A stretch of DNA of 19,234 nucleotides from a virus, in the UHGV virus genome UHGV-1599518; one strand, written 5' to 3'. The notes under the pieces were generated by a model. It was not told the origin of the DNA, ran no database searches, and worked only from the letters and a program-made list of their open reading frames with translations. The position numbers and the translations under genes were made by a program. Shown piece by piece: positions 3,629 to 19,234 of the stretch (position 1 is the stretch's first letter; the number at the start of each line of letters is the position of its first letter).

Positions 3629-4192
3629 ATGGCGCTTTATAACTTCACTCTGACGCTCTCAGGCGTATCGTATGAGACGGAAGGACTGGAAGACGCGCTG
3701 TACCAAAACGGCTGTGACGATGCGCTAATTTGCGCATATGGAAACTCCGTCTATGTAGAATTTGACCGCGAAGCACAATCACTTGATGCAGCTATCGCAT
3801 CTGCGGTCGACAATATTGAATCAGCCGGTATCGGTGCAATTGTTGAATCCGTCGACTCGGCTCTTGTGGGCTTAAGCGATATCGCGGAACTGACAGACCT
3901 GTCTCGCCAGGCAGTGGCGTTGCTCAAAGACGGTAAGCGCGGAAGCGGCGACTTCCCTTGCCCTGTACAACGCATAAAAGGCCAGTCTCCTCTCTGGGAT
4001 TGGGCTGATGTGGCTGAATGGCTCATGAATAACGGACGACTTAAAGAGGGCGATCAAATTGTCCAAAATGCCCGAACTTTGAGTAAATGGAATCTGGCGC
4101 TTCGAAACAGCGTCTCGAAAGATTTCAACGAAATAGAGCAAATTGCGGAGAAACTGATTAAACGCCGCAAAGATATTGCGAAATGCGCATAA
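3629..4192 (+). CDS. DNA-binding protein with central helix-turn-helix (candidate antitoxin/regulator)
   Basis: ATG 3629 with SD AAGGA 5 nt upstream (the track start at 3593 is TTG and overlaps the hairpin). N-terminal ~90-aa domain, HTH-like segment IAELTDLSRQAVALLKDGKRG, then a basic C-terminal extension. Confidence 0.65.
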   Translation: MALYNFTLTLSGVSYETEGLEDALYQNGCDDALICAYGNSVYVEFDREAQSLDAAIASAVDNIESAGIGAIVESVDSALVGLSDIAELTDLSRQAVALLKDGKRGSGDFPCPVQRIKGQSPLWDWADVAEWLMNNGRLKEGDQIVQNARTLSKWNLALRNSVSKDFNEIEQIAEKLIKRRKDIAKCA

Positions 4193-4193
4193 T

Positions 4194-4226
4194 GATGCCC
4201 GCCAATTGGCGGGCATCTGTTCTCTG
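4194..4226 (+). terminator. Rho-independent terminator (perfect 24-bp palindrome)
   Basis: GATGCCCGCCAA|TTGGCGGGCATC immediately after the stop codon, followed by TGTTCTCTG. Confidence 0.5.
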
Positions 4227-4308
4227 TAAAGGTGTCTGGCATCGTCTGGTTCGTTAACGTTTACTAAACCAATGGTGACAAAAATTAGTTATCTTTGAAA
4301 AATAAAGG

Positions 4309-4521
4309 TTGCATGAAAAGAAGGGGTATGCGTTAATAGCATCGTTGGTTTGCAAGACAGACCTTATGTAAGCAGTTTTAGTAAAGCAGTCTCAGTTCAG
4401 TGTTATCTTCTGATTTCCCTTCTTCGTGAGTCTCCTCCTTAAGTGCCTAAGTAAGTCCCAATCTATACAGATCAAATTCTCGCCGCACTATGTGGCTCAC
4501 AAAATTAAGAAGGTAATATCT
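4309..4521 (+). promoter_or_regulatory. cspA-type promoter (TTGCAT-17-GTTAAT with upstream AT-rich UP-like element) and long 5' UTR
   Basis: TTGCAT at 4309..4314 and GTTAAT at 4332..4337; ~180-nt leader with segments resembling the E. coli cspA leader (cold-box-like TTGCAAGACAGACC, AAGTAAGTCCCAATC; from memory). Confidence 0.55.
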
Positions 4522-4737
4522 ATGTCTAATAAAATGACTGGTTTAGTAAAATGGTTTAACTCTGATAAAGGCTTTGGCTTTATTTCTCCTGCTGATGGCA
4601 GTAAAGATGTTTTTGTACATTTTTCGGCAATTCAGAGTAATAATTTCCGCACTTTGGAAGAAGGCCAGCAGGTCGAATTCTCTATCGAGAATGGGGCTAA
4701 AGGCCCAGCAGCAGCAAATGTCGTTGCTCTAAGCTGA
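4522..4737 (+). CDS. cold-shock protein, CspA family
   Basis: [38 protein letters not shown]...[10 protein letters not shown] contains the RNP1/RNP2 motifs of CspA-family proteins. The ORF-track ORF starts upstream at 4426; the conserved start is the ATG at 4522. Confidence 0.95.
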
Positions 4738-5012
4738 TTCAACGCTGATGATCCTCATTTCTACAATAACGAAGACGGTGTAAGCCTGAGTGGATAGATT
4801 TGTAGGATTGTACAAGTTGAATAAATTAGCATGGTAAGGCCATGCTAATTAAATCGACACAACGGCCAGTTTATTCCATAAAAGTGAATTGCCCATTGTG
4901 GCGAAATGCGGGGTTGCCGCATGAATAGTCAAAGGCAGAAGCTAACTGCCGGCATGGCAAAACAAAGTGCGTAAGAGGAGTGACTTCCTCAACAAGCGCC
5001 ATAATTCTTTAT

Positions 5013-14226: not shown

Positions 14227-14404
14227 ATGACAATCACCGAGTTACGCCGATGCACTGTATAAGTAAACAGTATATTAGGCATAGATTCTTATAGGATCAA
14301 GAGTAAAAGTAACTCATTTTCAGCAATGATTCCATACATAGTAGGTATGGAATCATTTTGACGTTGTTTTTTGAATTTTAAGGGAAATGGGAGTGAGTTT
14401 GGTG

Positions 14405-14432
14405 GGAATAAAAACGGCTCCTGTGAGCCGTT
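14405..14432 (-). terminator. Rho-independent terminator for the glutaredoxin gene
   Basis: Minus strand: stop TGA, then stem AACGGCTC / GAGCCGTT with loop ACAG, followed by TTTATTCCC. Confidence 0.55.
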
Positions 14433-14436
14433 AAAA

Positions 14437-14682
14437 TCAGAGGGTGCTGACGTATGCAGCCAGTTCTGTGTATCCGCCAATCGGCTGGCCATCGATCAGC
14501 ACCTGGGGGATAGTCTCTACCGGTTTACCAACAATTTCACTTAGTTTTTCCTTGTCGATACCGGCAGTGGTGATGTCGATGTACTCATAATCACCGTTGC
14601 CATGTCCCTTTAGTTGCTTCGCCAGCTCGACCGCACGTTTGCAGTATGAGCAGTTATCTCGTCCGTAGATAGTGATCGTCAT
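14437..14682 (-). CDS. glutaredoxin (GrxA/NrdC-like), active site CSYC
   Basis: MTITIYGRDNCSYCKRAVELAK...GKPVETIPQVLIDGQPIGGYTELAAYV closely parallels E. coli glutaredoxin 1 (GKPVETVPQIFIDQQHIGGYTDFAAWV, from memory). CxxC motif is CSYC. Confidence 0.9.
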   Translation of the reverse strand: MTITIYGRDNCSYCKRAVELAKQLKGHGNGDYEYIDITTAGIDKEKLSEIVGKPVETIPQVLIDGQPIGGYTELAAYVSTL

Positions 14683-14855
14683 AACTTAACAAATACCTTT
14701 ATAAATATTGATTCGAACATATCAGACTATACTACAAACAGATTTTTTTGATAAGTATGTAGTAACTTATTGATTGACTAGTAAACAATTGAAGTGATTA
14801 CGACAATAGATTACAGTAAGGATTGCCTTGAAATGTACATTTTATAGAGGTTTTA

Positions 14856-15764
14856 ATGATTGGTAAGTTGTCTGATTCTTTGATTGAAAATAAATACAAC
14901 GAATTTAGAGAAGAAATATCTTTACTTTTTGATTATTTAAATCAGATAAATGATACAACAAAGAAAAATATAAAACGTCTTCTTAAAGAAGTGGAGTATG
15001 CACAGAATCCAGATACTATTATTAATATTAATGAAACTATTAAGATTAAGTGTGGCACAACGTTAGCTCGCCATTTATGTTCAAACCCATATACAGGTTC
15101 AACATTAGAGATAGGTAACAGCGCCATTGATTTAGAAGAAAAGATAAGATTGTGTAATACTTTGAAAAATAAACAATATCAGTGGGTTATTACTGAAGCC
15201 TATGAGTTACTGGAAGACTATATTGAGGCAATATATGTCTATACTGTATGTGTTCGAAATGATTTATGGTCCTCAAGTGATTTTGGTAAGGTTGAAGATG
15301 ATGAAATTGGGAAAAGGGAAGTTTATTACAGATTATTAAAAGCAAAAAGTAACCCATCGAAAAAAATAACTAAAATTTTCAGAAATAAAATACCTGGCTT
15401 CAAAGAGATAGAAACAAACAACAAGATTGGCAAAAACTATCGCTTTAACATCAAGCTAATTGAACTACTAAGACATACAATAGTACACAATAGTGGACGA
15501 TTCAATGATACAGAAAAATTTATAAATAAGGTTTTAGATGAATCTGAAATAAACGGTAAGAAAAGAGTTATTGGAGAAAGAGCTGTTAGAAGTTACATTA
15601 CTAAAGTGCAAGAAGATGATATTGTGATGCTCTTAGAAAGACCATCTGAAATTTTAGGTTCTTTTGGTGGGTATTTTAACAGAGCAAAATTTTTACTAAG
15701 TGATATTTTAGAATACTCACTAATCATTAAAGAAGAACTAAAATCATATCTAGGCAATCATTAA
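14856..15764 (+). CDS. AT-rich hypothetical protein (302 aa) with HEPN-like Rx4H motif; candidate Abi-like RNase
   Basis: ATG 14856 with SD AGAGG 5 nt upstream and its own terminator. By eye ~25-30% G+C against ~50% for neighbours. Lys/Asn/Ile-rich; motif ELLRHTIVHNSG fits the HEPN R-[NHQ]-x3-H signature. Opposite strand to both neighbours. Confidence 0.7.
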   Translation: MIGKLSDSLIENKYNEFREEISLLFDYLNQINDTTKKNIKRLLKEVEYAQNPDTIININETIKIKCGTTLARHLCSNPYTGSTLEIGNSAIDLEEKIRLCNTLKNKQYQWVITEAYELLEDYIEAIYVYTVCVRNDLWSSSDFGKVEDDEIGKREVYYRLLKAKSNPSKKITKIFRNKIPGFKEIETNNKIGKNYRFNIKLIELLRHTIVHNSGRFNDTEKFINKVLDESEINGKKRVIGERAVRSYITKVQEDDIVMLLERPSEILGSFGGYFNRAKFLLSDILEYSLIIKEELKSYLGNH

Positions 15765-15765
15765 C

Positions 15766-15795
15766 AAAAAAGGGGCCGAAGCCCCTTTGGATTTT
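15766..15795. terminator. bidirectional Rho-independent terminator
   Basis: AAAAAA-AGGGGC-CGAA-GCCCCT-TTGGATTTT, with A-run and T-run flanks; serves the AT-rich gene (plus) and the tRNA operon trailer (minus). Confidence 0.65.
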
Positions 15796-15864
15796 GCGCT
15801 TAAAAAAGTGTTGCTAGGATGTTAGCAAGCTATATGGTTAAGAACGTCTGCCGTAATTGTCTAT

Positions 15865-15942
15865 CACAGCGTTGAGCGGTCTGGTTTATGTTAGCGGAGT
15901 CTTAATCGAGTTGATTAAAAGGCCAAACCGCTCAACGCTGTG
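15865..15942. other. long stem-loop element (20-bp stem, one mismatch, 38-nt loop) 2 nt beyond the tRNA-Ser 3' end
   Basis: 5' arm CACAGCGTTGAGCGGTCTGG (15865..15884) pairs with CCAAACCGCTCAACGCTGTG (15923..15942). Strand of any RNA product not determined; the tRNA operon is minus. Confidence 0.4.
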
Positions 15943-15944
15943 TC

Positions 15945-16031
15945 TGGCGGAGAGTAATGGAATCGAACCATCATCGTTTGCACAATGGGACGGTTTTCAA
16001 GACCGCTTGAGCACCATGCTCCCTACTCTCC
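15945..16031 (-). tRNA. tRNA-Ser (anticodon UGA), class II with long variable arm
   Basis: Minus-strand sequence GGAGAGT...ACTCTCC-G-CCA: 7-bp acceptor stem, anticodon stem GCGGT/ACCGT with loop CTTGAAA, 17-nt variable arm, T-arm GATGG-TTCGATT-CCATT, encoded CCA. Manual fold, no tRNAscan run. Confidence 0.85.
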
Positions 16032-16131
16032 AGCTATTGTGATGGTCGGTACTGAACTCCGACACAGGGTTGTAGCAAGCCCCGCAAAGCGCGCACTACT
16101 GTAGTTGCGGCACATCAGCCTGTGCATTCAT

Positions 16132-16216
16132 CACAACGGTAAGATCACTACCTTTCGACCAGTCATTGTGCACATGAACGACGATTAACCGTAATGATAT
16201 TATCGTTGTGTTGTGA
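16132..16216. other. long imperfect inverted-repeat element A (paralogue of element B)
   Basis: 5' arm CACAACGGTAAGATCACTAC versus 3' arm GTAATGATATTATCGTTGTG (3 mismatches/wobbles). Shares the 5' 14-mer TCACAACGGTAAGA with element B. Confidence 0.3.
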
Positions 16217-16261
16217 AGCCAGATGCTTATCTTCTGGTTGCTTCAAAGAGCTGCACTTCCT

Positions 16262-16350
16262 CACAACGGTAAGAGCACTGGTCTGACTCTATCGATTTAC
16301 GGCCTTGTGGGTCAGTATCGCCGATTCGCCCAATGCTCTTACCTGTTGTG
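16262..16350. other. long inverted-repeat element B, abutting the tRNA-Thr 3' end
   Basis: 5' arm CACAACGGTAAGAGCA pairs with 3' arm TGCTCTTACCTGTTGTG (16 bp with one bulged A), enclosing ~56 nt. Ends 1 nt from the tRNA-Thr 3' end. Confidence 0.35.
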
Positions 16351-16351
16351 T

Positions 16352-16427
16352 TGGTGCCGGTTAACGGACTTGAACCGCTGGCCATTCGCTTACAAAGCGA
16401 CTGCTCTACCAACTGAGCTAAACCGGC
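16352..16427 (-). tRNA. tRNA-Thr (anticodon UGU)
   Basis: Minus-strand GCCGGTTTAGCTCAGTTGGTAGAGCAGTCGCTTTGTAAGCGAATGGCCAGCGGTTCAAGTCCGTTAACCGGCACCA: canonical 76-nt cloverleaf, anticodon loop TTTGTAA, T-loop TTCAAGT, encoded CCA. Anticodon stem has one G-A mismatch (27-43). Confidence 0.85.
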
Positions 16428-16431
16428 AATT

Positions 16432-16518
16432 TGGTGGGGAGTGATGGAGTCGAACCACCCGAGTCGCCATGACAGTAGATTTACAGTCTACACCGCTACC
16501 TCTACGGACTAACTCCCC
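16432..16518 (-). tRNA. tRNA-Tyr (anticodon GUA), class II with long variable arm
   Basis: Minus-strand GGGGAGT...ACTCCCC-A-CCA: anticodon arm GTAGA-CTGTAAA-TCTAC, T-arm GGTGG-TTCGACT-CCATC, long variable arm. Separated from tRNA-Thr by 4 nt. Confidence 0.85.
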
Positions 16519-16523
16519 TAAAT

Positions 16524-16561
16524 GGGGTTTGAGGGCCAATGGAACGAAAACGTACGCTAAG
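16524..16561. repeat. 38-bp terminal inverted repeat of a Tn3-family transposon (Tn1000/gamma-delta-like)
   Basis: GGGGTTTGAGGGCCAATGGAACGAAAACGTACGCTAAG has the GGGG outer end and TGGAACGAAAAC core typical of Tn3-family IRs (from memory). The tnpA stop codon lies inside it. Confidence 0.85.
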
Positions 16562-19234
16562 AAGTTAATTCATTGTTTAAATTGAAATTTAGTTCTCTCA
16601 GTTCCCCCTTCAAAATATCCTCCGGTAGCGTAAACGTATAATGCCCCAGCATATTGATATGCCCGTGCATCAGTGGGGACAACCGGGCGATATCTTCAAC
16701 CCCGATTTCTTCTCCATTACTGCGTATCCAGCTCAGGGCTTCCTGCATATAAAGTGTGTTCCACAGTACCACTGCGTTAGTGACCAGGCCCAGTGCCCCC
16801 AGCTGATCTTCCTGACCTTCACGATAGCGCTTTCTGATCTCACCGCGCTGCCCGTAGCAGATCGCCCTCGCCACAGCATGGCGGCCTTCCCCCCGGTTTA
16901 GCTGCGTCAGGATCCGCCGACGATAATCCTCATCATCAATATAATTAAGAAGGTACAGCGTCTTGTTGACGCGCCCCACTTCCATGATCGCCTGTGCCAG
17001 CCCTGATGGGCGCGAGCTTTTCAGCAAAGAGCGAATGAGTTCTGAAGCATGAATGGTGCCCAGTTTCAGCGAACCGGCGGTTCGCATCATCTCATCCCAC
17101 TGATCCTCGGCTTTCGACAGATCGGCACAACCACGTGCCAGTTCGTCCAGTGCACCGTAATTTGCCGATTTATCCACTCGCCAGAATACCGCTTCACCGG
17201 CATCGGCAAGCCGGGGGGAAAACTGGTATCCCAGCAGCCAGAAGAGGCCAAAAATAATGTCGCTGGTACCGGCTGTGTCTGTCATGATCTCAACCGGATT
17301 CAGCCCTGTCTGCTGCTCCAGAAGGCCTTCCAGCACAAAAATGGAATCTCGTAATGTGCCGGGGACAACGATGCCGTGGAATCCAGAGTACTGATCAGAG
17401 ACGAAGTTGTACCAGGTGATGCCACGTCCGGAACCAAAATATTTTCTGTTAGGTCCTGAATTGACGGTTTTCACCGGCGTGACAAAGCGCATGCCATCAG
17501 CTGAAGCCACTTCGCCACCACCCCAGCGGCCAGCAAGCTCCAGTGTGGACTGAAAATCAACCAGGCGGGCATTGGCGCTGACCAGCGTTTCTGCCCGGAG
17601 GTAATTCTGTTTTACCCAGCTAAGCCGGTGGCGCGTCAGCGCCGGTATATTGTGCTTTATCAGCGGTTCCAGCCCGATATTGCAGGCCTCTGCCATCAGG
17701 ACCGCGCACAGGCTGATGTGCAGATCCTGTGCCCGGGCCCCGGATTCACTGACATGCGTAAACTCACGTGTAAATCCCGTTCTGGCATCTATTTCAAGCA
17801 ACAGTTCCGTCAAATCTACTGGCGGGAGTAGCAGCCTTACCCGACTGTTGAGACGATGCAACGATGGTGGCTCCTCCAGTTTCTCCAGGCTGCTGATAGT
17901 CAGGGAAGGATGTTTACCGTCATGGCAAATATGAACCTCCGCATTTCCTTCAAAGCGGGATGCGACGGTTTTCCAGGTTTCATCTAGCTGGACCGCCAAC
18001 TGTTGCACGCCTTTATGTCCATCAGTGGGATGTCCCAGCGCCCGGCAAACGGGGACCCGCTGAGCCTGCCATTCTTCCCCCTGCAACAGCTTCTCGCGGG
18101 GATTTCCCCAGCGATCGCTGTTTTCGAGCCAGATGTCCCTTCGACGTAGTGCATCCTGAAGGCGCTCCAGCAGACAAAGCGAGTAACCGGCACGCTGTAT
18201 CCGGCCCTCCGCATCGTATACCAGGCGTTTCCAGGGGCCGGTAATAATATGTTCAGGCGCATTGTCCAGGATGCGCTTTTTCGAGCCGTTCAGTTCGGTC
18301 AGATAATGAATGGCGGACAACGTATGTTCTCCGGCTGGCGCTGCCTGGAAATGCAGGTCGCGCAATACCGCCGGAAGAAAGCGCTTTACCCGCCCGTACT
18401 GCTCCACCATTTCGTCATGGAAATTGTTGTTCTGAGGCCGGGCCAGCTCATTTACCTTGCTGACGGATTCTGCCAGCCTGCTTTTCGGTATGCTGTTGAA
18501 TATGGTCTCCCTCAGTTCAGCATCGTCAGCCTGTTCATCCAGCAACAATGAACATGCCCGCGCCAATATTAGCGCAGCACGATCAAGATCTTTAAGCGTC
18601 CTGAGCCGTTTTTTCTGCCCCGTTTTCTTCGCCGCACGAGTGATATCCAGTATCAGCATATCGAGCACATCAACGGCCTCATCCAGCGCCGCAGTCTCCT
18701 GCGCTTTAACGAATGCTGTGAGTACGGCCAGTTTTCTCTGCTGTGGCATTCGCGCGATATATTTTACCGACGCCATGCCTGCGTAACGGGCCAAATTACG
18801 CAGTTGTATAGCAGGCAGACCGGTAAAATTCAGTCGGGAAAATTCCAGGTTTCGCAGCCGGATATATCGCTCCAGCGCTTCGGTAAATGCCGGGCCGCTG
18901 ACGGTGACCGGTCCCTTTTTCAGTTGCTCCAGCGGTGAAGTACGCTGCCCCTCAGGAATGTCCAGAAGCTCCGTCACGCGGGCGGTCTGCCAGCTGTCCG
19001 GCAACGCGGCCAGTTTCTTCCACAGCCGCTGATTTGCCCGTTCGCGTATTTCACTGACGAGACGTACAAGTGTGGTTGCTCCGGGCAGCAGGACCTTATT
19101 CTGAAGCAGCCACGCGGTGGCAAAATCAAACATAAGGCCGGGTCGCTCATTACTGAGCCATGCGCGGGTGTACAGCAGGCGCTTCAGGCGGAAAGACCAG
19201 GGGAAATCGCCAAATTCATGGTAACCGTAATATT
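16557..19234 (-). CDS. tnpA: Tn3-family transposase TnpA (C-terminal ~890 aa; N-terminus beyond the right window edge)
   Basis: ORF-track 858-aa ORF 16557..19133, and the frame stays open upstream to the window edge (…YHEFGDFPWSFRLKRLLYTRAWLSNERPGL before the track's Met). Blocks such as GGGEVASADGMRFVTPV, GITWYNFVSDQYSGFHGIVVPGTLRDSIFVLEGLLEQ and LYLLNYIDDEDYRRRILTQLNRGE are characteristic of Tn3-family TnpA. Confidence 0.95.
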   Translation of the reverse strand, partial: YYGYHEFGDFPWSFRLKRLLYTRAWLSNERPGLMFDFATAWLLQNKVLLPGATTLVRLVSEIRERANQRLWKKLAALPDSWQTARVTELLDIPEGQRTSPLEQLKKGPVTVSGPAFTEALERYIRLRNLEFSRLNFTGLPAIQLRNLARYAGMASVKYIARMPQQRKLAVLTAFVKAQETAALDEAVDVLDMLILDITRAAKKTGQKKRLRTLKDLDRAALILARACSLLLDEQADDAELRETIFNSIPKSRLAESVSKVNELARPQNNNFHDEMVEQYGRVKRFLPAVLRDLHFQAAPAGEHTLSAIHYLTELNGSKKRILDNAPEHIITGPWKRLVYDAEGRIQRAGYSLCLLERLQDALRRRDIWLENSDRWGNPREKLLQGEEWQAQRVPVCRALGHPTDGHKGVQQLAVQLDETWKTVASRFEGNAEVHICHDGKHPSLTISSLEKLEEPPSLHRLNSRVRLLLPPVDLTELLLEIDARTGFTREFTHVSESGARAQDLHISLCAVLMAEACNIGLEPLIKHNIPALTRHRLSWVKQNYLRAETLVSANARLVDFQSTLELAGRWGGGEVASADGMRFVTPVKTVNSGPNRKYFGSGRGITWYNFVSDQYSGFHGIVVPGTLRDSIFVLEGLLEQQTGLNPVEIMTDTAGTSDIIFGLFWLLGYQFSPRLADAGEAVFWRVDKSANYGALDELARGCADLSKAEDQWDEMMRTAGSLKLGTIHASELIRSLLKSSRPSGLAQAIMEVGRVNKTLYLLNYIDDEDYRRRILTQLNRGEGRHAVARAICYGQRGEIRKRYREGQEDQLGALGLVTNAVVLWNTLYMQEALSWIRSNGEEIGVEDIARLSPLMHGHINMLGHYTFTLPEDILKGELRELNFNLNNELTS

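What the first reader, a model, noticed from the sequence alone, without database searches (positions are those of the whole stretch)
15945..16518. Compact element-encoded tRNA set (Ser-UGA, Thr-UGU, Tyr-GUA), possibly a countermeasure to tRNA-targeting defences
Three complete tRNAs with encoded CCA ends sit on the minus strand with 4-nt spacing between Thr and Tyr, in the style of phage tRNA clusters. They are clearly divergent from E. coli housekeeping tRNAs as I recall them; for example tRNA-Thr has a G-A mismatch closing its anticodon stem. Beyond codon-usage compensation, phage tRNAs have been reported to replace host tRNAs cleaved by anticodon nucleases. The adjacent HEPN-like gene makes that angle worth testing.
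Basis: partly seen in the sequence, partly recalled or inferred. Interest (0 to 1): 0.45.

Follow-up and report, generated by a model that had tools for sequence, protein, structure and literature searches.

The report
Phage-plasmid tRNA cassette split by transposon
Three genuine, host-divergent tRNA genes (Tyr, Thr, Ser) are the remaining part of a four-tRNA operon of an E. coli phage-plasmid that a transposon has cut in two, and the Thr tRNA carries the sequence changes recently shown to make phage tRNAs resistant to bacterial tRNA-cutting defences.

Summary
tRNA-Ser(UGA), Thr(UGU) and Tyr(GUA) lie on the minus strand with encoded CCA ends and are 62-74% identical to the E. coli isoacceptors. 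The window is an SSU5/pECOH89-type phage-plasmid. In intact relatives the operon is Asn-Tyr-Thr-hairpin-hairpin-Ser-hairpin-terminator. Here a Tn3-family transposon sits in the 5-nt Asn|ATTTA|Tyr spacer.

The anti-defence reading is supported in silico, mainly for Thr. Its G27·A43 mismatch plus U28-A42 match the two determinants published for resistance to P2-OLD, and positions 39 and 41 of the PARIS AriB cleavage motif are changed. In 120 viral contigs this tRNA-Thr lineage carries at least four anticodon-arm types on a conserved body. Tyr is the retron-Eco7 target, and Asn is a PARIS and colicin E5 target.

Codon supply also fits Ser and Thr (UCA 2.1x, ACA 1.8x) but not Tyr or Asn. Ser is a non-canonical "(8/4)" phage tRNA-Ser.

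The parts
16432..16518 (-). tRNA-Tyr(GUA), type II (long variable arm), encoded CCA, 2 extra nt between positions 9 and 10. In this window it is the first gene after the transposon.
   Evidence: ARAGORN. Rfam tRNA 41.6 bits. 68% identity to tyrU, anticodon loop identical to the host, U28-A42 where the host has C28-G42.
16352..16427 (-). tRNA-Thr(UGU), encoded CCA. Anticodon arm is GUCGC/UUUGUAA/GCGAA, with a G27·A43 mismatch and U28-A42.
   Evidence: ARAGORN. Rfam 69 bits. Arm scored against the published nuclease determinants. Divergence from the P1 allele is concentrated in positions 26-44.
15945..16031 (-). tRNA-Ser(UGA) of the non-canonical '(8/4)' allo-tRNA type: A8 can pair with U65, short D-loop on a 4-5 bp D-stem, long variable arm, G73, encoded CCA.
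   Evidence: ARAGORN. Not reported by RF00005 at gathering threshold; best match is the tRNA-Sec model at 44.8 bits. Covariation in 11 phage homologues. Described by Mukai et al. 2017.
16262..16349 (-). Hairpin Hb, beginning right after the Thr CCA. Conserved bulged outer stem CACAAC-A-GGUAAG.../...CUUACCGUUGUG with a variable apex.
   Evidence: Inverted repeat I3. MFE -35.6, z -5.5. Stem covariation and variable apex in 21 natural variants.
16123..16219 (-). Hairpin Hc, a paralogue of Hb.
   Evidence: Inverted repeat I2 and direct repeat D2, 91%. z -3.1. 94.6% identical to P1 and Ro157 DNA while the annotated opposite-strand ORF is not conserved.
15865..15942 (-). Hairpin Hd, beginning 2 nt after the Ser CCA, with a 20-bp stem.
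   Evidence: Inverted repeat I1, 95%. MFE -41.2, z -9.1.
15769..15788 (-). Intrinsic terminator that ends the tRNA operon. The same GC hairpin faces the convergent 302-aa gene.
   Evidence: Terminator scan. The same site is found in relative L002.
16519..16523 (.). ATTTA (minus-strand reading). This is the original 5-nt Asn-Tyr spacer and the presumed 5-bp target-site duplication of the transposon.
   Evidence: Window sequence compared with the intact relative, which reads ...GCCA|ATTTA|GGGGAG. Homology to relatives stops at 16523.
16524..16561 (.). 38-bp terminal inverted repeat of a Tn3-family transposon (GGGGTTTGAGGGCCAATGGAACGAAAACGTACGCTAAG).
   Evidence: Read from the sequence. Copies 99.7-100% identical occur on many unrelated plasmids starting at this point.
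16557..19234 (-). tnpA (Tn3-family DDE transposase), same orientation as the tRNAs. The reading frame runs off the window end.
   Evidence: Pfam DDE_Tnp_Tn3, E 6.9e-151. Frame open to 19232. The full-length copy is 1002 aa with a divergent resolvase in pYE854.
14856..15764 (+). 302-aa HEPN-like protein (phrog_35492), convergent with the tRNA operon, in a variable accessory slot.

Best explanation
The three tRNAs are the downstream part of a modular phage tRNA cassette of an SSU5/pECOH89-type E. coli phage-plasmid. In intact relatives the cassette is Asn(GUU)-Tyr(GUA)-Thr(UGU)-hairpin-hairpin-Ser(UGA)-hairpin-terminator. It is transcribed on the minus strand, probably by read-through from the upstream ligase-side genes (inferred). 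In this copy a Tn3-family transposon inserted into the 5-nt Asn-Tyr spacer, so Tyr-Thr-Ser now lie directly downstream of tnpA. The cassette most likely has two roles during lytic growth. (a) It supplies decoding capacity for codons that the element over-uses and for which the host has a single tRNA gene: UCA and UCU through Ser-UGA, and ACA through Thr-UGU. (b) It keeps translation going when host tRNAs are destroyed by anti-phage tRNases. Host thrU is the preferred target of P2-OLD and a prime target of PARIS AriB. Host tRNA-Tyr is the target of retron-Eco7 PtuAB. Host tRNA-Asn is a secondary PARIS target. The element's Thr allele has the shortened anticodon stem (G27·A43) and the altered CNG motif (U28-A42), which together made phage tRNA-Thr resistant to P2-OLD, and it has changed positions 39 and 41 of the AriB motif. 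Shown here: gene identity, operon architecture, the insertion, the sequence determinants, the codon statistics and the allelic diversity. Inferred: expression, aminoacylation, nuclease resistance and any benefit to the element.
For: The tRNAs are real and diverge from the host's. The element type and the four-tRNA operon are seen in relatives. The insertion point and transposon identity are established. Codon usage of about 27,000 element codons against about 36,000 K-12 codons gives UCA 2.09x (rank 5 of 61), UCU 1.87x and ACA 1.81x. P2-OLD cleaves thrU at C28-N-G30/C40-N-G42, and phage Thr(UGU) rescues; resistance needs both an altered CNG motif and loss of the 27:43 pair. The window's Thr has UCG/CGA and G27·A43. 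AriB cuts at 40|41 within U36AAUC|A, and U39 and A41 mutations block or reduce cleavage; its targets are Lys, Thr(UGU) and Asn. The window's Thr reads UAAGC|G and the relatives' Asn reads UAACC|A. Retron-Eco7 depletes tRNA-Tyr and phage Tyr tRNAs rescue. Of 13 differences between the window-type and P1-type Thr, 9 lie in positions 26-44 (Fisher p = 2.6e-4). In 120 IMG/VR contigs the same tRNA body carries at least four arm types, and two of them independently combine a 27·43 mismatch with a broken CNG motif; one of these has the G30C/C40G and 43A changes described for the resistant tRNA-Thr6. The cassette is shared between P1-like and SSU5-like phage-plasmids and gains or loses Tyr, Ser, Arg and Met slots.
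Against: There are no experimental data for these tRNAs. The anticodon loops of Ser, Tyr and Asn are identical to the host's, and Thr differs only at position 32, so nucleases that cut in the loop or anticodon (PrrC-like, colicin E5, HepS, DARNA) should cut them too. No tRNA-Lys(UUU) is present, and the Lys variant is required to bypass the studied PARIS system. Rescue from retron-Eco7 depended on strong expression, but no sigma-70 promoter was detected in or about 850 nt upstream of the operon, and in this copy the transposon separates the tRNAs from upstream transcription. Codon supply alone explains Ser and Thr, and the alternative cassette slots Arg(UCU) and Met/Ile(CAU) read AGA and AUA, which are the element's most enriched rare codons. 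The abundant P1-type Thr allele keeps CUG/CAG and a full stem. No known E. coli defence was found that targets tRNA-Ser(UGA).
Confidence: 0.55

Rival explanations
1. Pure codon supply. The tRNAs only top up decoding of codons that the AT-richer element uses more than the host, and the anticodon-arm differences are neutral drift in a phage tRNA lineage.
For: UCA, UCU and ACA are 1.8-2.1x enriched, and the host has single genes for the cognate tRNAs (thrU is the only UGU tRNA). The alternative cassette slots Arg(UCU) and Met/Ile(CAU) read AGA (3.3x, rank 1) and AUA (2.06x, rank 6). Anticodon loops are host-like.
Against: Tyr and Asn codons are not enriched (0.94-1.20x), and the host has 3 tRNA-Tyr and 4 tRNA-Asn genes. 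Differences between Thr alleles are concentrated in the anticodon arm (p = 2.6e-4) and hit the experimentally defined determinants, and two arm types do so independently. In an uncurated library of 245 coliphage tRNAs, most tRNAs with the right anticodon suppressed nuclease toxicity.
Confidence: 0.28
2. Self-immunity module. The adjacent 302-aa HEPN-like protein is a tRNA-cleaving exclusion or defence nuclease of the phage-plasmid, and the neighbouring tRNAs are its resistant substitutes, so that only the element can translate when the nuclease fires.
Against: Relatives with 99% identical tRNAs carry a different 420-aa gene or none in that slot. Five contigs carrying two distant homologues have no tRNA nearby. 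The same tRNA cassette occurs in P1-like phages in another context. There is no Pfam, PADLOC, PDB-HMM or Foldseek support for a known defence family. The anticodon loops are host-like.
Confidence: 0.05
3. In this particular copy the set is a silenced remnant. The transposon has cut Tyr-Thr-Ser off from the operon's transcription, so they no longer contribute, whatever the ancestral function was.
For: The insertion lies exactly between Asn and Tyr. No promoter-like site was found in 15700-16700. The transposon is at least 4 kb.
Against: tnpA is co-oriented and ends 38 nt upstream of Tyr with no terminator predicted in between, so read-through is possible. The three genes are 100% identical to those of an intact relative, so there is no decay. 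The consensus promoter scan also found nothing upstream of the intact operon, so it is uninformative.
Confidence: 0.12

Closest known systems
Nuclease-resistant phage 'rescue' tRNA-Thr(UGU), such as tRNA-Thr6 and phage 21 tRNA-Thr, which counter P2-OLD (Govande et al., NAR 2025, PMC12445682)
   Same: UGU anticodon. C28U/G42A-type alteration of the CNG pseudo-palindrome. Loss of the 27:43 pair, which shortens the anticodon stem. Encoded by a temperate coliphage-like element.
   Different: The sequence differs from thrU at 21 positions, whereas Thr6 differs at 12. Resistance has not been tested. The tRNA sits in a phage-plasmid operon with Asn, Tyr and Ser. I could not establish whether this allele was in their 245-tRNA library.
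T5 tRNA-Lys/Thr/Asn variants that neutralise PARIS AriB (Burman et al. 2024, PMC11464382; Belukhina et al. 2025, PMC12409363)
   Same: Thr(UGU) and Asn(GUU) are two of the three relevant AriB targets. Substitutions fall at or next to the 40|41 cleavage site (position 39 in both tRNAs, and also position 41 in Thr).
   Different: The cassette has no tRNA-Lys(UUU), which was required in that system. The substitutions are different bases (U39G and U39C, against U39A in T5 Lys). Untested.
T5-family tRNA-Tyr that counters retron-Eco7 PtuAB (Azam et al. 2024, PMC11555353)
   Same: A phage-encoded tRNA-Tyr(GUA) divergent from host tyrT/U/V. The variable region, where the cut maps (near U47), differs from the host's.
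   Different: In T5 the rescue depended on a very strong promoter, and none is evident here. No resistance determinants are known, so none can be scored.
P1/P7/D6 tRNA genes of the C1-controlled ban operon (trnA Asn, trnT Thr, trnI)
   Same: Homologous DNA (78-95% identity), the same order Asn-(Tyr)-Thr-hairpins-(Ser), and the same strand logic.
   Different: P1 lacks Tyr, and P1 proper lacks Ser. P1's Thr keeps the CUG/CAG motif and a full 5-bp stem. The cassette sits in an unrelated siphovirus-type phage-plasmid backbone.
(8/4) tRNA-Ser of the allo-tRNA group (Mukai et al., NAR 2017, PMC5389517)
   Same: A8 can pair with U65 (8-bp acceptor plus 4-bp T-stem). tRNA-Sec-like D-stem with a short loop. 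Long variable arm, G73, a serine anticodon, and occurrence in phages.
   Different: This allele's D-loop is one nt shorter than in the rV5-type homologue. The 8/4 pairing could not be proven by covariation because A8, G9, U64 and U65 are invariant.

Membership tests
tRNA (functional elongator tRNA genes) | Cloverleaf recognised by independent predictors | tested here: met
   ARAGORN finds all three. Rfam RF00005 gives Thr 69 bits and Tyr 41.6 bits. Ser matches only the clan member tRNA-Sec at 44.8 bits, below its gathering score of 47, but PGAP annotates it as tRNA-Ser in relatives.
tRNA (functional elongator tRNA genes) | 7-nt anticodon loop with U33 and a purine at 37; synthetase identity elements (Thr: G1-C72, C2-G71, G35, U36; Tyr: A73, G34, U35, long arm; Ser: G73, long arm). 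The identity rules come from established knowledge. | tested here: met
   Read from the sequences.
tRNA (functional elongator tRNA genes) | Expressed, processed and aminoacylated | not testable with these tools
   Needs northern blots, tRNA-seq or acid-urea gels.
P2-OLD-resistant phage tRNA-Thr | UGU anticodon | tested here: met
P2-OLD-resistant phage tRNA-Thr | Altered CNG pseudo-palindrome at 28-30/40-42 | tested here: met
   UCG/CGA, against the host's CUG/CAG. Rule.
P2-OLD-resistant phage tRNA-Thr | Shortened anticodon stem (27:43 unpaired) | tested here: met
   G27·A43.
P2-OLD-resistant phage tRNA-Thr | Resists cleavage and rescues ACA decoding | not testable with these tools
   Needs a biochemical or genetic assay.
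PARIS-evading viral tRNA set | Substitutions at positions 39 or 41 flanking the AriB cut | tested here: met
   Thr reads UAAGC|G. Asn in relatives reads UAACC|A. Rule.
PARIS-evading viral tRNA set | Includes a resistant tRNA-Lys(UUU) | tested here: not met
   No Lys tRNA in the window, in relatives, or in any cassette variant among 120 viral contigs.
(8/4) tRNA-Ser / allo-tRNA | tRNA-Sec-like long D-stem with a short (about 4-nt) loop | tested here: met
   4-5 bp stem with about 8 different stem sequences, all paired except one mismatch in D6. Loops are NUGG-type. The window's loop is AUGGU, or UGG if A15-U19 pairs.
(8/4) tRNA-Ser / allo-tRNA | 8-bp acceptor stem plus 4-bp T-stem | tested here: inconclusive
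   A8-U65 and the C-G closing pair of the variable arm are possible in all 11 sequences, but the positions are invariant, so the 7/5 alternative with G49·U65 cannot be excluded.
(8/4) tRNA-Ser / allo-tRNA | Long variable arm, G73 or U73, serine anticodon | tested here: met
HEPN RNase (302-aa neighbour) | Conserved Rx4-6H motif | tested here: met
   R206 and H211 are invariant in 36 members at 17-60% identity.
HEPN RNase (302-aa neighbour) | HEPN four-helix fold | tested here: inconclusive
HEPN RNase (302-aa neighbour) | Match to a curated HEPN or defence family profile | tested here: not met
   Pfam, PADLOC and PDB-HMM are negative. One of 36 members gives HEPN_Apea at E 0.022 and one gives HepT-like at E 0.084.
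Tn3-family transposon | 38-bp GGGG-terminal inverted repeat with a DDE_Tnp_Tn3 transposase ending inside it | tested here: met
Tn3-family transposon | 5-bp target-site duplication | tested here: inconclusive
   Only one end lies in the window. ATTTA abuts the inverted repeat and equals the ancestral spacer. No record with this junction was found.

The most novel reading that the evidence does not exclude
The Asn/Arg-Tyr-Thr-Ser block is a mobile anti-tRNase cassette exchanged between unrelated phage-plasmid families. Its tRNA alleles diversify in the anticodon arm under selection by Toprim nucleases (OLD, PARIS). The conserved bulged CACAAC...GUUGUG hairpins that follow the Thr and Ser tRNAs, some with T-arm and D-arm-like apical modules, would be a new class of tRNA-mimicking RNAs that act as decoys or processing modules in the same conflict.
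Probability: 0.12. Interest if true: 0.75.

Novelty: new member of a known kind. Interest (0 to 1): 0.45.

Why it matters
Phage-plasmids of the SSU5 and P1 groups are common in clinical Enterobacteriaceae and carry resistance genes. Whether they establish in or spread through a strain depends partly on resident defences such as P2 prophages (old), PARIS and retrons. If their tRNA cassette is a counter-defence, then its alleles would predict which hosts an element can exploit: the window-type Thr arm is predicted OLD-resistant and the P1-type arm OLD-sensitive. It would also extend tRNA-based counter-defence from large virulent phages such as T5 to temperate plasmid-like elements. The natural allelic series found here gives a ready-made mutational panel for testing the specificity rules of Toprim tRNases.

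Tried and rejected
1. Rfam family for the spacer hairpins or the leader. No family was found at E <= 1 in the window, in L002 or in the P1-family loci. A YrlA (Y-RNA-like) idea, prompted by the T-arm-like apices, was not supported: the only YrlA hit (25.6 bits against a gathering score of 69) overlaps the tRNAs themselves. No DicF match was found.

2. The spacer as a protein-coding upl/plp homologue. Rejected: the Plp frame is broken in Ro157 and fragmented across frames here, although the DNA is 78-95% identical.

3. Functional linkage between the HEPN-like gene and the tRNAs. Rejected on distribution.

4. Finding the source record to see the far end of the transposon and tRNA-Asn. No record in PLSDB or in RefSeq complete E. 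coli genomes spans the junction.

5. Promoter scan. No sigma-70 consensus was found in the operon or its leader, so the promoter remains unknown.

6. The afdb50 fold library was unavailable. Foldseek against PDB was uninformative.

7. Evasion by anticodon-loop mutation (the model of van den Berg et al. 2023). It does not apply: the loops are identical to the host's except at position 32 of Thr.

8. An integron attC-like reading of the AAC...GTT-ended hairpins. Considered only by eye. The ends do not fit RYYYAAC/GTTRRRY, and I did not pursue it.

9. A defence known to target tRNA-Ser(UGA) in E. coli. None was found. By its stated anticodon preference, HepS's Ser target should be an isoacceptor whose anticodon ends in U, which UGA does not.
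Full report
**Observation.** ARAGORN finds exactly three tRNA genes in the 19,234-bp window. Rfam's tRNA covariance model scores Thr at 69 bits and Tyr at 41.6 bits. All three have an encoded CCA, and Tyr and Thr are 4 nt apart. I aligned them to E. coli K-12 isoacceptors taken from NC_000913.3. They are 62% (serT), 74% (thrU) and 68% (tyrU) identical, so they are not copies of host genes. The G-A mismatch in Thr is real but is pair 27:43, at the top of the anticodon stem.

**What the element is.** The region is 99-100% identical to E. coli plasmids of about 110 kb, such as pECOH89 (NC_023916.1) and pEcoFMU073332c. The latter's annotation shows a complete siphovirus structural module together with repA/parB, dnaE, nrdAB and ligase genes, which makes it an SSU5-type phage-plasmid. 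The window carries the matching dnaE, AAA/CobT-like, integrase and glutaredoxin genes. RefSeq annotation of intact relatives shows four tRNAs: Asn(GUU), 5 nt, Tyr, 4 nt, Thr, about 320 nt, Ser.

**The transposon.** In this window, homology to the relatives stops at 16523. What follows is a 38-bp Tn3-family inverted repeat (16524-16561) and a co-oriented tnpA (Pfam DDE_Tnp_Tn3, E 6.9e-151) whose frame runs off the window. The intact sequence reads Asn-CCA|ATTTA|Tyr, and here the inverted repeat abuts ATTTA-Tyr. The transposon therefore inserted exactly into the 5-nt spacer, and ATTTA is the expected 5-bp duplication. I could not verify the far end, because no record in PLSDB or RefSeq E. coli spans this junction. 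A 100%-identical transposon copy in pYE854 has a 1002-aa TnpA and a divergent resolvase. A 2025 survey reports Tn3-like insertions near tRNA loci in SSU5-group phage-plasmids.

**The Ser tRNA is non-canonical.** The general tRNA model does not report it at gathering threshold. It aligns end to end with the tRNA-Sec model (44.8 bits, gathering score 47). It has A8 rather than U8 and a compact D-arm. Homologues occur in rV5-like, T5-like and T4-like Klebsiella phages, and in Acinetobacter, Pseudomonas and Streptomyces phages; they are often unannotated or called tRNA-OTHER. In a hand-curated parse of 11 homologues, the D-stem takes about eight different sequences, all paired except for one mismatch in D6, with NUGG-type short loops. 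The anticodon, variable and acceptor stems also covary. A8-U65 is possible in every sequence but the positions are invariant. This matches the "(8/4) tRNA-Ser" of the allo-tRNA group, described in bacteriophages by Mukai et al. 2017. Its anticodon is UGA (codon UCA), the discriminator is G73 and the variable arm is long, so charging with serine is expected from established SerRS rules. That was not tested here.

**Codon supply.** I used annotated CDS of the intact relative plus the window (26,952 codons) and three K-12 regions (35,883 codons). UCA is 2.09x enriched (rank 5 of 61), UCU 1.87x and ACA 1.81x. Tyr and Asn codons are 0.94-1.20x. The host has one gene for Thr-UGU and, from general knowledge, one for Ser-UGA. 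It has three tRNA-Tyr genes (tyrT, tyrV and tyrU; one search shows tyrU, the others from general knowledge) and four tRNA-Asn genes. Codon supply therefore fits Ser and Thr but not Tyr and Asn.

**Defence evasion.** Recent experiments bear on these same anticodons.
- P2-OLD preferentially destroys thrU by cutting after C28 and C40 of a paired CNG motif. Phage Thr(UGU) tRNAs rescue, and their resistance needs both an altered CNG motif (G30C/C40G or C28U/G42A) and loss of the 27:43 pair.
- PARIS AriB cuts Lys(UUU), Thr(UGU) and Asn(GUU) between positions 40 and 41 in U36AAUC|A. A U39 mutation abolishes cleavage and an A41 mutation reduces it.
- Retron-Eco7 PtuAB depletes tRNA-Tyr, and phage Tyr tRNAs rescue.
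- Colicin E5 targets Tyr, His, Asn and Asp.

Scoring the element's tRNAs against these rules:
- **Thr:** 27-31/39-43 is GUCGC/GCGAA, against the host's ACUGA/UCAGU. It therefore has U28-A42, G27·A43 and UAAGC|G, so both OLD determinants are present and both AriB positions are changed.
- **Asn (relatives):** UUG/CAA and UAACC|A.
- **Tyr:** U28-A42.
- **Ser:** keeps CGG/CCG.

The loops are identical to the host's except for U32 in Thr, so evasion of nucleases that cut in the loop is not expected.

**Evidence that the anticodon arm is under selection.** P1 and D6 carry the same Thr lineage but with CCUGC/GCAGG, which keeps the CNG motif and a full stem. Nine of the 13 differences between the window-type and P1-type alleles lie in positions 26-44 (Fisher p = 2.6e-4). 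The arm types were P1-type (86), window-type (18, plus 4 close variants), GCUCA/UGAGA (4), host-like (about 5), and a few single-base variants of the P1 type. The GCUCA/UGAGA type has the G30C/C40G and 43A changes that conferred resistance in tRNA-Thr6. Two arm types thus independently combine a 27·43 mismatch with a broken CNG motif.

**The cassette is modular.** Its layout is [Asn or Arg(UCU)]-[±Tyr]-Thr-[±Ser]-[±Met/Ile(CAU)], and the window-type arm almost always travels with Tyr. The same cassette occurs in P1-like myoviruses such as Ro157c2YLVW and in SSU5-like siphovirus phage-plasmids, which implies horizontal exchange.

It is not linked to the tRNAs. Relatives with 99% identical tRNAs carry a different 420-aa gene in that slot. 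Contigs carrying two distant homologues have no tRNAs nearby. Solo-HEPN prophage anticodon nucleases do exist (HepS, DARNA), so a nuclease with matching immune tRNAs is conceivable, but I rate it unlikely.

**Operon anatomy and an unexplained feature.** The operon ends at an intrinsic terminator (15788-15769). No sigma-70 promoter was detected in the operon or within about 850 nt upstream in the intact relative. The operon is probably transcribed with the upstream same-strand genes. In P1 the homologous tRNAs lie in the C1-controlled ban operon.

Long hairpins with CACA(A/G)C...GUUGUG bases occur in four places: upstream of Asn (in relatives), twice between Thr and Ser, and directly after Ser. 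Their folding z-scores are -6.3, -5.5, -3.1 and -9.1. P1 annotates upl and plp on the opposite strand of this DNA. The Plp frame is broken in Ro157 and fragmented here, although the DNA is 78-95% identical, so the conservation is not protein-coding.

Across 21 natural variants of the hairpin after Thr, the bulged 19-bp outer stem is conserved, with double compensatory changes at four pairs. The apex is swapped between unrelated sequences. The commonest (P1-type) apex contains a T-arm-like AGGG-UUCGAAU-CCCU and a D-arm-like stem. No Rfam family matches, YrlA included. I leave their function open. Possibilities are RNase III processing sites, tRNA-mimic RNAs or DNA-level recombination sites.

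**Verdict.** The general idea that viral tRNAs act as counter-defence has been published since 2023. What this analysis adds:
- the set is a transposon-severed part of a four-tRNA modular cassette shared by two phage-plasmid families;
- its Thr allele matches the experimentally defined resistance rules for two Toprim tRNases, within a natural series of arm alleles;
- Ser is an (8/4)-type tRNA;
- the HEPN-like neighbour is probably coincidental.

My best explanation is a dual-purpose cassette providing both codon supply and nuclease-proof replacement tRNAs (confidence 0.55).

Noticed in passing
window 16262-16349, 16123-16219, 15865-15942 (minus strand); L002 about 4167-4287: There is a family of long bulged hairpins (CACAAC-A-GGUAAG.../...CUUACCGUUGUG), with copies directly after the Thr and Ser tRNAs. 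The outer stem is conserved with compensatory changes. The apex is hypervariable, and some variants carry T-arm-like and D-arm-like modules. No Rfam family matches.
   Followed up: partly
L005 (phage P1) 1376-1945; window 16032-16351: P1's annotated upl and plp ORFs lie antisense to these hairpins. The Plp frame has an internal stop in Ro157 and is fragmented here although the DNA is conserved, so plp is probably not a real gene.
   Followed up: partly
window 16519-19234: A Tn3-family transposon (gamma-delta-like inverted repeat by my recollection; 1002-aa TnpA and a divergent resolvase in an identical copy on pYE854) is inserted exactly in the 5-nt Asn-Tyr spacer. The junction is absent from PLSDB and from RefSeq complete E. 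coli genomes.
   Followed up: partly
window 16432-16518: tRNA-Tyr has two extra nucleotides (GU) between position 9 and the D-stem, and a variable arm 2 nt longer than the host's. The same feature is seen in the P1-like phage Ro157c2YLVW.
   Followed up: no
window 4344-4762 (+): There is a full-length match to the cspA thermoregulator RNA (185.7 bits) upstream of a cold-shock protein gene (annotated cspG in the relative) on the phage-plasmid.
   Followed up: no
window 14289-15764; L002 614-3065; L004 1726-2988: The slot between the integrase/glutaredoxin genes and the tRNA operon is variable among near-identical relatives. It holds the HEPN-like 302-aa gene here, a YafO toxin plus a 202-aa ORF in addition in pEcoFMU073332c, and an unrelated 420-aa ORF with no Pfam hit in pGMI17-003_2. 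It looks like an accessory or defence hotspot.
   Followed up: partly
L011 10247-11045 (relative pEcoFMU073332c): The relative carries a DUF1778/GNAT toxin-antitoxin pair. Known members of that family acetylate aminoacyl-tRNAs (from memory), so this would be another tRNA-directed function on the same element type. The relative also carries a captured metG and a type I restriction-modification system.
   Followed up: no
L005 1218-1337, L006 1294-1414, L007 1231-1350 (minus strand): There are sub-threshold matches to the Salmonella sRNA family STnc100 (33-40 bits, gathering score 47) downstream of the tRNAs in P1-family phages. No such match was found in the window.
   Followed up: no
IMG/VR loci L028-L147 (for example L028, L039, L080, L096): In some cassette variants the first slot holds Arg(UCU) instead of Asn(GUU), and a Met/Ile(CAU) tRNA can follow Ser. 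AGA and AUA are among the codons most enriched in the element (3.3x and 2.06x).
   Followed up: partly
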